Positions 7,878 to 8,175 of a stretch of DNA of 17,832 bases are shown here, one piece after another. The translations under genes were made by a program, and so were the position numbers. Under the pieces are notes generated by a model. The model worked only from the letters and a program-made list of their open reading frames with translations. It was not told the DNA's origin and made no database searches. How positions within the stretch are numbered: the stretch's first letter is position 1; each line of letters opens with the position of its first letter. This DNA comes from a virus (taxonomy: Duplodnaviria; Heunggongvirae; Uroviricota; Caudoviricetes): IMG/VR virus record IMGVR_UViG_2537561685_000014, positions 1 to 17,832 of that record. One strand, written 5' to 3'.

Positions 7878-7991
7878 ATGAAAGGTATTGAAGTGGAAAC
7901 TCCCGCGAGCCTTGATTTGACAAGGGCTGCGGCCTTTGCAATTCGCCTTGTGGCGGTCGCTGTTCTGATTTGGGCTGTGCGTTGGTGGTGA
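7878..7991 (+). CDS. Small membrane peptide (37 aa), hypothetical
   Basis: ORF MKGIEVETPASLDLTRAAAFAIRLVAVAVLIWAVRWW with a hydrophobic C-terminal helix; GAGG 8 nt upstream; its stop is 1 nt before the next ATG. Too small to appear in the ORF track. Confidence 0.3.
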   Translation: MKGIEVETPASLDLTRAAAFAIRLVAVAVLIWAVRWW

Positions 7992-7992
7992 T

Positions 7993-8175
7993 ATGACGCG
8001 AAAACACTGGACACACAGAATGCCGCGAACGGCGGCGAAATGGGCACTGGTAGCGATACTGGTGCCTTTTTTCTTGGTGGGATGCGTCAGCCTGGATAAA
8101 GCGCGCCAGCTTTTCGATACGGCTTCTCAGGTCTGTGAAATTGTCGACGGTGTTCGGCAGTGTATGCAGAACTGA
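7993..8175 (+). CDS. Small lipoprotein (60 aa), hypothetical
   Basis: Signal peptide with lipobox LVGC, short Cys-containing mature part; GGTGGTG just upstream of the ATG. Sits where lambda has Rz/Rz1 but is not proline-rich. Confidence 0.4.
   Translation: MTRKHWTHRMPRTAAKWALVAILVPFFLVGCVSLDKARQLFDTASQVCEIVDGVRQCMQN

What the first reader, a model, noticed from the sequence alone, without database searches (positions are those of the whole stretch)
7878..8175. Small peptide plus lipoprotein pair in the Rz/Rz1 position
Downstream of the post-endolysin terminator are a 37-aa peptide with a C-terminal hydrophobic helix ending RWW and a 60-aa lipoprotein (lipobox LVGC; mature part about 30 aa with three further Cys). 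They are tightly coupled (stop TGA, one base, ATG). They do not look like canonical spanins; they could be a surface-exclusion or toxin-like moron, or a very reduced outer-membrane spanin.
Basis: partly seen in the sequence, partly recalled or inferred. Interest (0 to 1): 0.5.

Follow-up and report, generated by a model that had tools for sequence, protein, structure and literature searches.

The report
Orphan lipoprotein in phage spanin slot
In this E. coli prophage a tiny outer-membrane lipoprotein sits exactly where phages normally keep the two genes that burst the outer membrane, with no inner-membrane partner gene, so it may do that last step of cell lysis in an undescribed way.

Summary
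Both ORFs are real, conserved genes, but they are not a dedicated pair. The "37-aa peptide" is the C-terminal part of a 50-aa membrane protein (ORF-A, GTG 7839 to 7991). The ORF-A module is a hairpin terminator, a leader and the ORF. In EHEC and Salmonella prophages it lies directly upstream of Rz/Rz1, using the same TGGTGGTGA-N-ATG junction.

The 60-aa lipoprotein (LP, 7993-8175) has lipobox LVGC and a 30-aa helical mature part with two, not three, further Cys. It is under purifying selection (dN/dS 0.22). It lies 0-14 nt after the last lysis gene in seven junction types across lambdoid, P27-like and Mu-like phages. These are the slots where related phages carry spanins.

None of 89 loci with an intact LP had a spanin. 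Two complete LP phages (phiP27, phiSTEC1575-Stx2k) have no i- or u-spanin candidate. In GER2-like phages, which have Rz/Rz1, LP is a decayed pseudogene.

Kongari et al. (2018) listed the phiP27 homolog as an "o-spanin". The "i-spanin" they paired with it is a shadow ORF. My best reading is a spanin-slot lipoprotein that acts on the outer membrane without a phage-encoded partner. Its position is shown; its function is inferred.

The parts
6451..6843 (+). Holin-like gene 1 (Phage_holin_8, PF16931), first gene of the lysis cassette
   Evidence: Pfam E 5e-22 and phrog_198 holin. PGAP coordinates come from the identical E. coli record.
6833..7111 (+). Holin-like gene 2 (Phage_holin_3_7, PF05449)
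   Evidence: Pfam E 5e-21 and phrog_217 holin.
7113..7658 (+). Endolysin, glycoside hydrolase 108 plus PG_binding_3
   Evidence: Pfam E 2e-26 and 1e-25; phrog_315 endolysin.
7752..7790 (.). Hairpin flanked by an A-tract and a U-tract (bidirectional intrinsic-terminator form). It is the 5' boundary of the mobile ORF-A module.
   Evidence: dG -24.7 kcal/mol, z -4.07; terminator scan. It is present upstream of every ORF-A homolog examined in E. coli, Salmonella and Klebsiella, with differing stem sequences.
7839..7991 (+). ORF-A, 50 aa: MGKYKRFFLRLSIMKGIEVETPASLDLTRAAAFAIRLVAVAVLIWAVRWW. It has a basic N-terminus, an acidic linker and a C-terminal hydrophobic helix.
   Evidence: The start codon varies GTG/ATG/TTG at 7839, and an upstream in-frame stop is present in EHEC alleles. 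Homologs from other genera start at the same position. Full-length match to phrog_4493, E 1e-23. The window allele lacks 8-11 residues of the hydrophobic region present in longer relatives.
7980..7995 (+). Coupling junction CGT TGG TGG TGA T ATG. The RWW codons form a GGTGG Shine-Dalgarno-like element 4 nt before the downstream ATG.
   Evidence: The junction is invariant in the alignment whether the downstream gene is LP or Rz. The same spacing is seen in L170-L177 (ORF-A ends at 2614, Rz starts at 2616).
7993..8175 (+). LP, 60-aa prolipoprotein: MTRKHWTHRMPRTAAKWALVAILVPFFLVGCVSLDKARQLFDTASQVCEIVDGVRQCMQN
   Evidence: phrog_7528 E 6e-39. 139 homolog clusters. dN/dS 0.22. Codon 1 is ATG in 66/66 alleles.
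7993..8082 (+). Signal peptide of 30 aa, with an unusually long basic n-region (5 K/R and 2 His in 17 aa). The lipobox LVGC is at 8074-8085.
   Evidence: Alignment A1 shows the n- and h-regions are as conserved as the mature part. dN/dS is 0.225 for the n-region and 0.31 for the h-region.
8083..8172 (+). Mature lipoprotein, 30 aa. Residue +2 is Val, so outer-membrane sorting is expected. It is predicted helical, with invariant Cys at 8134-8136 (C48) and 8161-8163 (C57).
   Evidence: AF2 predicts helix 12-59 at low confidence, pLDDT 66. Kongari Table S2 gives 83% helix for the phiP27 homolog. muH 0.40, net charge -1, and a heptad with L4/A7/F11/A14/C18/V21 at a/d positions. Invariant Cys in A1 and in distant relatives.
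7846..7875 (-). Promoter-like site on the opposite strand (TGGACA, 18 nt spacer, TATACT). It could drive a roughly 90-nt antisense RNA ending at the hairpin. This is a hypothesis only.
   Evidence: Promoter scan, 10 of 12 matches. Sub-threshold Rfam sar hit at 7749-7852 (-), 23 bits, E 0.067. The hexamers are conserved in homologs but are confounded with coding.

Best explanation
The finding contains two independent modules of a lambdoid late (lysis) operon.

(1) ORF-A is a conserved 50-aa membrane protein. It travels with its own upstream hairpin. Its last codons (RWW-stop) form the ribosome-binding and coupling site for whatever gene sits in the spanin slot. It is not a specific partner of the lipoprotein.

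(2) LP is made late, co-transcribed and translationally coupled with the lysis genes. It is exported, lipidated at Cys31 and sorted to the inner leaflet of the outer membrane. There its 29-residue amphipathic, Cys-containing helix accumulates, probably as disulfide-linked oligomers.

LP occupies the slot that otherwise holds Rz/Rz1 or another spanin pair, and no inner-membrane partner travels with it. I therefore infer that LP performs or assists the last lysis step, outer-membrane disruption, on its own or with a host factor.

The most plausible gating is as follows. LP is too short (about 4 nm) to reach anything until the endolysin removes the peptidoglycan and turgor presses the inner membrane against the outer membrane. 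The tethered helix can then destabilise or fuse the membranes.

Shown: gene reality, selection, topology signals, slot equivalence, absence of spanins. Inferred: outer-membrane disruption and its mechanism.
For: Slot equivalence:
- ORF-A is followed at the identical TGA-N-ATG junction by Rz (PF03245)/Rz1 (PF06085) in EHEC prophages, and by LP here. Homology breaks a few bases after the ATG.
- The GH108 endolysin is followed directly by LP in L070, L153 and L159. It is followed directly by an overlapped i-/o-spanin pair in L158 and L161.
- L135 has an ORF-A-like peptide followed by lambda-like Rz/Rz1.

Coupling to lysis genes: LP starts between a 4-nt overlap and 14 nt after the preceding gene. 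That gene can be an M15 or GH108 endolysin, ORF-A, ORF-X, an Ant/KilA-N-like ORF or a further unclassified 163-aa ORF. This holds in lambdoid, P27-like and Mu-like phages, and with either the holin pair or a lambda-S-type holin.

Absence of spanins:
- No Rz, Rz1 or other tested spanin was found in 89 LP loci.
- No i-spanin or u-spanin candidate was found in the complete phiP27 and phiSTEC1575-Stx2k genomes.
- The published phiP27 "i-spanin" is antisense to a conserved gene (phrog_36812). It has no PHROG family and is not a conserved ORF in L037.

Redundancy signal: in GER2 and 11 related contigs LP is a frameshifted, stop-ridden pseudogene. In every one of these with enough upstream sequence, including GER2, Rz/Rz1 lies upstream.

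Gene quality:
- dN/dS is 0.22.
- The lipobox and both Cys are invariant down to relatives at about 35% identity.
- No + strand promoter lies between the terminator and the ORFs.
Against: - There is no experimental evidence of any kind. Function rests on position and mutual exclusivity.
- The pseudogene observation is one lineage, so effectively one event.
- A mature part of 30 residues cannot span the periplasm, and no mechanism for a partner-less lipoprotein is established.
- The mature peptide is not cationic (net charge -1) and only moderately amphipathic (muH 0.40, shuffle p 0.05).
- About 15 of the 80 GH108 loci have lost LP and carry nothing in its place. LP is therefore not indispensable for prophage persistence.
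- The spanin searches used a limited set of spanin queries plus heuristics. An unconventional partner could have been missed.
- The AF2 model is of low confidence.
Confidence: 0.5

Rival explanations
1. LP is a bona fide o-spanin of a two-component system. Its inner-membrane partner has not been recognised. It could be a host protein, a phage protein encoded elsewhere, or the retained signal peptide or precursor of LP itself.
For: - Kongari et al. 2018 classified the phiP27 homolog as an o-spanin.
- LP has the o-spanin hallmarks: lipobox, outer-membrane sorting residue, lysis-cassette position and conserved periplasmic Cys.
- The signal peptide is unusually long, basic and as conserved as the mature part.
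Against: - No gene other than LP is common to the seven junction types.
- The proposed phiP27 i-spanin is a shadow ORF.
- No type II membrane protein with a charged periplasmic domain was found in two complete genomes.
- 30 residues contribute at most about 4 nm to a periplasm of about 20 nm.
Confidence: 0.15
2. LP is a late-expressed accessory lipoprotein unrelated to lysis. It might block a receptor, protect progeny from adsorbing to debris, or alter envelope or virulence properties like Bor/Iss, Cor or T5 Llp. The phages that carry it would then be truly spanin-less.
For: - Small phage lipoproteins with such roles exist; bor/iss lies immediately downstream on the other strand (8347-8640).
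- About 13% of phages lack recognisable spanins.
- Loss of LP without replacement occurs in L143-L157.
Against: - LP has no similarity to Bor, Cor or any defence family.
- There is no independent promoter, and in many contexts no intergenic space for one.
- LP is found with myovirus (phiP27), lambda-J siphovirus (phiSTEC1575-Stx2k) and Mu-like virions, so it does not track receptor specificity.
- It swaps precisely with spanin genes.
- It decays where Rz/Rz1 is present.
Confidence: 0.2
3. ORF-A and LP form a toxin-like moron. ORF-A would be a type I toxin-like hydrophobic peptide controlled by an antisense RNA, and LP would be its partner or antidote.
For: - ORF-A is a 50-aa hydrophobic peptide.
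- A promoter-like site on the opposite strand, together with the bidirectional hairpin, would give a roughly 90-nt antisense RNA over its leader.
- There is a weak Rfam sar-like hit.
- The ORF-A module is mobile and once sits in a baseplate region.
Against: - ORF-A and LP occur independently of each other.
- The antisense promoter hexamers overlap conserved codons, so their conservation is uninformative.
- The Rfam hit is far below the gathering score.
- No structure is conserved beyond the hairpin.
- ORF-A has no PADLOC or Pfam family.
Confidence: 0.05
4. LP is a functionless relic of a decayed spanin cassette carried along in defective prophages.
For: Many carriers are prophages of unknown viability. 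One lineage holds a pseudogene copy.
Against: - dN/dS is 0.22 over 66 alleles, with the start codon, lipobox and both Cys intact.
- LP is conserved down to relatives at about 35% identity in other phage types.
- It is present in isolated phages phiP27, phiSTEC1575-Stx2k and vB_Apl-pPE4.
Confidence: 0.05

Closest known systems
phiP27 'o-spanin' (Kongari et al. 2018, BMC Bioinformatics 19:326; singleton family, in-silico call)
   Same: It is the same protein family: 95% identity at NC_003356 20679-20861. It was noted there as part of the shortest spanin pair in 677 genomes, with 30 + 32 periplasmic residues.
   Different: Here the paired "i-spanin" is shown to be a non-conserved shadow ORF. The family is large, with 266 viral contigs and many E. 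coli prophages. The real start gives 60 aa, not 51 aa.
Lambda Rz/Rz1 two-component spanin
   Same: Same genomic slot and the same upstream ORF-A junction. Both are outer-membrane lipoproteins with conserved periplasmic Cys, expressed late with holin and endolysin.
   Different: No i-spanin is present. The mature part is 30 aa and helical, versus 40 aa and proline-rich. There is no homology (hhalign probability 3%, no PF06085 hit). LP cannot span the periplasm.
Unimolecular spanin (T1 gp11 type)
   Same: A single gene, with an outer-membrane lipoprotein signal, in the lysis cassette.
   Different: LP has no C-terminal transmembrane domain; its C-terminus is VRQCMQN. It therefore has no inner-membrane anchor.
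Disruptin (phiKT gp28; bioRxiv 10.1101/515445)
   Same: A single small amphipathic peptide proposed to replace spanins in a spanin-less phage.
   Different: Disruptin is a cationic antimicrobial-peptide-like protein. LP is a lipoprotein with net charge -1.
Colicin lysis proteins / bacteriocin release proteins (Pfam Lysis_col)
   Same: A very small lipoprotein with a mature part of about 30 aa, encoded as the last gene of a lysis or release operon, with an atypical signal peptide. These points about the colicin proteins come from my own knowledge of the family.
   Different: There is no sequence match to any Pfam family at E <= 1. The context is a phage, not a colicin plasmid. OmpLA dependence is untested.
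Lcc6 of Shewanella phage LambdaSo (bioRxiv 10.1101/2024.01.23.576932), as an analogue for ORF-A only
   Same: A small (65 aa) transmembrane protein encoded with the lysis genes and required for lysis beyond holin, endolysin and spanin.
   Different: Homology was not tested. The role of ORF-A is unknown, and ORF-A also occurs once outside a lysis cassette.

Membership tests
o-spanin of a two-component spanin | Outer-membrane lipoprotein signal: lipobox and no Asp at +2 | tested here: met
   The lipobox LVGC is invariant. Residue +2 is V or A in most members; two distant relatives (P0126, P0141) have S or E.
o-spanin of a two-component spanin | Cognate i-spanin gene (type II inner-membrane protein) embedded, overlapped or adjacent | tested here: not met
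   No common neighbour across seven junction types. No candidate in two complete genomes. The published phiP27 candidate is a shadow ORF.
o-spanin of a two-component spanin | Combined periplasmic domains long enough to bridge the inner and outer membranes | tested here: not met
   The mature part is 30 aa, at most about 4.3 nm as a helix, and there is no partner.
o-spanin of a two-component spanin | Location in the lysis cassette, co-expressed with holin and endolysin | tested here: met
   LP starts between a 4-nt overlap and 14 nt after the preceding lysis-cassette gene in all but the phiP27-type context.
o-spanin of a two-component spanin | Sequence homology to a characterised o-spanin family (for example Rz1, PF06085) | tested here: not met
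   No Pfam hit at E <= 1. hhalign against an Rz1 gives probability 3%. The profile search of 1.84 billion proteins finds only LP relatives.
o-spanin of a two-component spanin | Complements a spanin lysis defect | not testable with these tools
   Needs the lambda Rz-am Rz1-am complementation assay.
Unimolecular spanin | N-terminal lipoprotein signal plus a C-terminal transmembrane domain | tested here: not met
   The signal is present. The C-terminal 12 residues (IVDGVRQCMQN) are polar.
Disruptin / cationic antimicrobial-peptide-like lysis peptide | Strongly cationic amphipathic peptide | tested here: not met
   Net charge -1 and muH 0.40; LP also carries a lipobox.
Colicin lysis protein (bacteriocin release protein) | Membership of the Pfam Lysis_col family and a colicin operon context | tested here: not met
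   No Pfam family at E <= 1. All contexts are phage lysis cassettes.
Colicin lysis protein (bacteriocin release protein) | OmpLA-dependent outer-membrane permeabilisation and a stable signal peptide | not testable with these tools
   Needs assays in a pldA mutant and pulse-chase of the signal peptide.
Moron / exclusion lipoprotein (Bor, Cor, Llp) | Own promoter and terminator, expression in the lysogen, and homology to Bor, Cor or Llp | tested here: not met
   No + strand promoter. No intergenic space in most contexts. No Bor or Cor hit for LP. No PADLOC hit.
Type I toxin-antitoxin (ORF-A only) | Small hydrophobic toxin with a cis-antisense RNA over its 5' region | tested here: inconclusive
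   The peptide fits the description. There is a promoter-like site on the minus strand plus a bidirectional hairpin. The Rfam sar hit is sub-threshold, and conservation is confounded with coding.

The most novel reading that the evidence does not exclude
LP defines a third way for phages of Gram-negative bacteria to breach the outer membrane. A lipid-anchored helical peptide of about 30 residues would work without any inner-membrane component. It would be gated simply by removal of peptidoglycan, and it is interchangeable with Rz/Rz1 in natural mosaics. It is common in E. coli prophages, including Stx2e, Stx2k and ETEC phages.
Probability: 0.35. Interest if true: 0.8.

Novelty: new variant of a known kind. 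Interest (0 to 1): 0.6.

Why it matters
- Spanins are thought to need a physical bridge between the inner and outer membranes. A partner-less 30-residue lipoprotein in the same slot would challenge that requirement, and would be a minimal outer-membrane-active peptide.
- It would explain how a common class of E. coli prophages, including Shiga-toxin phages phiP27 and phiSTEC1575-Stx2k, releases virions and toxin.
- It corrects a database entry: the shortest "spanin pair" in the reference survey. It also corrects two gene starts that annotation pipelines get wrong.
- The question can be tested directly with an existing lambda complementation platform.

Tried and rejected
- Pfam, NCBIfam and PADLOC gave nothing for either ORF.
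- PHROGs gave only unknown-function families.
- A profile search of 1.84 billion representatives found only 24 clusters, all LP relatives or spurious repeats, with no link to a known family.
- A PDB sequence search gave only chance hits.
- AF2 gave one long low-confidence helix, so no fold search was run on it.
- hhalign against Rz1 matched only the signal peptide.
- The idea that the signal peptide is under stronger constraint than the mature part was not borne out: dN/dS is similar in both.
- The idea that one of the holins, ORF-A or ORF-X is the obligate partner was rejected, because LP occurs without each of them.
- Consensus folding of the putative antisense RNA showed only the hairpin, with no compensatory pairs scored.
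- Literature searches for the accessions, the PHROG ids and phiSTEC1575-Stx2k found no functional study.

Full report
**What is there**

The window is the late region of an E. coli lambdoid prophage. It is 100% identical over the finding to several ETEC genomes. The gene order is: Q antiterminator, a DNA methylase, tRNA-Thr and tRNA-Gly, two holin-like genes (PF16931, PF05449), a GH108/PG_binding_3 endolysin (7113-7658), the two ORFs of the finding, bor/iss on the opposite strand, and then nu1/terminase.

A frame runs from ATG 7878 to TGA 7989-7991. One base follows. A 60-codon frame then runs from ATG 7993 and carries the lipobox LVGC. A strong hairpin with a U-tract lies after the endolysin (dG -24.7, z -4.1).

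**Corrections to the observation**

1. *The peptide is most likely 50 aa, starting at GTG 7839.* At that exact codon, alleles carry GTG, ATG or TTG. EHEC alleles have an in-frame stop six codons further upstream, which excludes the GTG at 7818. Homologs from Salmonella, Klebsiella and Serratia conserve the extra residues (x-K/Y-Y-K/R-R-I-L-L-R-L) and start at that position with ATG or GTG. The 50-aa form matches phrog_4493 end to end with E 1e-23, against 7e-16 for the 37-aa form. The window allele is also a short variant, lacking 8-11 residues of the hydrophobic segment found in relatives.

2. *The lipoprotein starts at 7993, not at PGAP's 8020.* Codon 1 is ATG in all 66 unique alleles. Codon 10 is ACG, ACA or ATA in six of them. 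The first 17 codons have dN/dS 0.225.

3. *The mature part has two further Cys, not three.* These are C48 and C57, and both are invariant.

**Both are real genes**

LP has 139 homolog clusters in E. coli, E. marmotae, Salmonella, Cronobacter, Yersinia and Citrobacter. It is found in 266 IMG/VR contigs. Its dN/dS is 0.22. A profile search of 1.84 billion representatives found only 24 clusters. These include a diverged subfamily at about 35-55% identity that keeps the long basic n-region, the lipobox and both Cys.

ORF-A has 177 clusters. One 37-aa allele is listed in more than 4,000 collection blocks. Neither protein matches Pfam, NCBIfam or PADLOC.

**They are not a dedicated pair**

Among 82 LP loci, the gene immediately 5' of LP falls into seven junction types:
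- the M15 endolysin, with a 14-nt gap (about 31 loci);
- a 44-aa transmembrane ORF-X, preceded by a 60-aa ORF-A relative (about 21 loci);
- ORF-A, as in the window (about 25 loci);
- a non-coding stretch after an antisense gene (the phiP27 type, 3 loci);
- the GH108 endolysin, with a 4-nt overlap;
- an Ant/KilA-N-like ORF;
- a further unclassified 163-aa ORF inserted after the M15 endolysin (L079).

Diverged LP members follow an M15 or GH108 endolysin directly in three further settings: a lambdoid phage with a lambda-S-type holin, a Mu-like phage, and another myovirus-type contig.

Conversely, ORF-A in EHEC O26/O111-type prophages and in Salmonella prophages lies between a Phage_lysozyme endolysin and Rz (PF03245)/Rz1 (PF06085). 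In one Klebsiella prophage it lies in a baseplate region. The ORF-A module always begins with the same hairpin.

**Slot equivalence**

Aligning the window with an O111 prophage shows shared sequence from the hairpin through ORF-A to an invariant CGnTGGTGGTGA-N-ATGA. Homology ends a few bases into the downstream gene. That gene is Rz in one and LP in the other. In EHEC loci ORF-A ends at 2614 and Rz starts at 2616. The RWW codons therefore double as a GGTGG ribosome-binding element for whichever gene sits in the slot.

The GH108 endolysin is likewise followed directly by LP in some phages and by an overlapped i-/o-spanin pair in others. One locus has an ORF-A-like peptide followed by lambda-like Rz/Rz1.

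**Mutual exclusivity with spanins**

No Rz, Rz1 or other tested spanin occurs within the flanks of 89 LP loci, 656 kb in total. The complete genomes of phiP27 and phiSTEC1575-Stx2k contain no i-spanin-like or u-spanin-like ORF by tblastn and topology heuristics. LP is the only small lipoprotein in their lysis regions.

In phage GER2 and 11 related viral contigs, an LP copy lies about 750 nt downstream of Rz/Rz1. It still carries the last bases of the ORF-A junction. It is a pseudogene with a frameshift and three stops. This is a single lineage, so it counts as one event. It is what redundancy would predict.

**Relation to the literature**

Kongari et al. 2018 annotated the phiP27 homolog (20706-20861, 51 aa, 30 periplasmic residues, 83% helix) as an o-spanin. 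They paired it with a 64-aa TTG ORF (20348-20542) as the i-spanin, and noted this as the shortest spanin pair in 677 genomes.

That i-spanin lies antisense to a 90-aa gene. The 90-aa gene belongs to phrog_36812 (E 5e-20) and is 46% identical to its counterpart in L037. The + strand ORF has no PHROG family and shrinks to 36 aa in L037. It is also absent from every other LP context. LP is therefore an orphan.

No paper in the searchable library mentions the accessions or PHROG ids.

**How it probably works**

The following is shown:
- late operon position;
- no + strand promoter between the terminator and the ORFs;
- a canonical lipobox with Val at +2, which by the +2 rule means outer-membrane sorting (established knowledge);
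- a helical prediction;
- a heptad-like a/d stripe of L4, A7, F11, A14, C18 and V21, with modest amphipathicity (muH 0.40) and net charge -1.

The rest is inferred. LP accumulates in the inner leaflet of the outer membrane, possibly as disulfide-linked oligomers. It cannot reach the inner membrane until the peptidoglycan is destroyed and turgor apposes the two membranes. It then destabilises or fuses them.

A mode like that of colicin release proteins, through OmpLA activation, is an alternative. The long, basic signal peptide is as constrained as the mature part, so a role for the precursor or the cleaved peptide remains possible. None of this is tested.

**ORF-A**

ORF-A is a tail-anchored-type 50-aa protein of unknown role that accompanies the spanin slot. 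A promoter-like site on the opposite strand (7875-7846), together with the bidirectional hairpin, would yield an antisense RNA of about 90 nt over its leader. Rfam gives only a sub-threshold sar-like hit. Conservation of the hexamers cannot be separated from coding. I regard a type I toxin-like or lysis-regulatory role as open.

**Verdict**

- The "pair" is two separable modules.
- The lipoprotein is a member of the family already listed in silico as the phiP27 o-spanin.
- The evidence here shows it lacks any partner and swaps with complete spanin systems. It fails the membership tests for two-component spanins, unimolecular spanins, disruptin and colicin release proteins.
- That makes it a new variant of outer-membrane lysis factor, if the inferred function holds. 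I put that at about 0.5 for an outer-membrane lysis role in general, and about 0.35 for a truly stand-alone mechanism.

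Noticed in passing
window 7846-7875 (-) and 7749-7852 (-): A promoter-like site on the minus strand (TGGACA, 18 nt spacer, TATACT) faces the bidirectional hairpin. It would give an antisense RNA of about 90 nt over the ORF-A leader and start codon. Rfam gives a sub-threshold sar RNA hit (23 bits, E 0.067).
   Followed up: partly
L178 (phiP27 NC_003356) 20348-20542 (+) versus the minus-strand ORF at about 20344-20616: The "i-spanin" of phiP27 in the reference spanin survey is a shadow ORF. It lies antisense to a conserved 90-aa gene (phrog_36812). It is not conserved as an ORF in the related locus L037.
   Followed up: yes
L195 (phage GER2) 3488-3668; L197-L207: A decayed LP pseudogene (frameshift and three stops) lies about 750 nt downstream of an intact ORF-A-Rz/Rz1 cassette in a lineage of Stx-type phages. 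It still carries the last bases of the ORF-A junction.
   Followed up: yes
L134-L137, about 3656-4908 in each locus: Two ORFs are inserted directly after the GH108 endolysin. One is a 259-286-aa protein with a signal peptide; the other is a 126-133-aa protein. From memory they resemble the A and B subunits of an AB5 heat-labile-enterotoxin-type toxin. This is a toxin cargo in the same post-endolysin slot; no family search was run.
   Followed up: no
L143-L157, about 3750-3893 in each locus: A lineage of GH108 cassettes has a truncated 47-aa ORF starting MKGIE running straight into bor. This looks like a deletion that removed the 3' part of ORF-A and all of LP, leaving no candidate outer-membrane factor.
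   Followed up: partly
protein P0016: In six contigs a one-base deletion at the TGA-N-ATG junction fuses ORF-A and LP into one 89-aa frame (...VVRWWCMTRKHW...). This could be real or a sequencing error.
   Followed up: no
L015 and relatives, between the ORF-A homolog and LP (for example L015 3770-3996): A further small membrane ORF, ORF-X (44 aa, MSDSIIKLARILCVVVGLSFSAMLVAIFISTAWRVLSLSGLIGG, phrog_4906), sits between a 60-aa ORF-A relative and LP in about 21 loci. Its function is unknown.
   Followed up: partly
window 2451-3734 (-): A 427-aa ORF on the opposite strand lies between the Q antiterminator and the methylase. It is annotated as hypothetical in the identical E. coli record. Its position is moron-like.
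   Followed up: no
window 8347-8640 (-): A Bor/Iss (increased serum survival) lipoprotein gene lies immediately downstream on the opposite strand, as in lambda. A hairpin at 8316-8340 (-) lies just 3' of it and could serve as its terminator.
   Followed up: partly
L001 12781-15396 versus window 10104-12029: In strain 120899 the terminase large-subunit gene is split by an IS66-family element (ISCro1). In the window the 641-aa terminase frame is intact.
   Followed up: no
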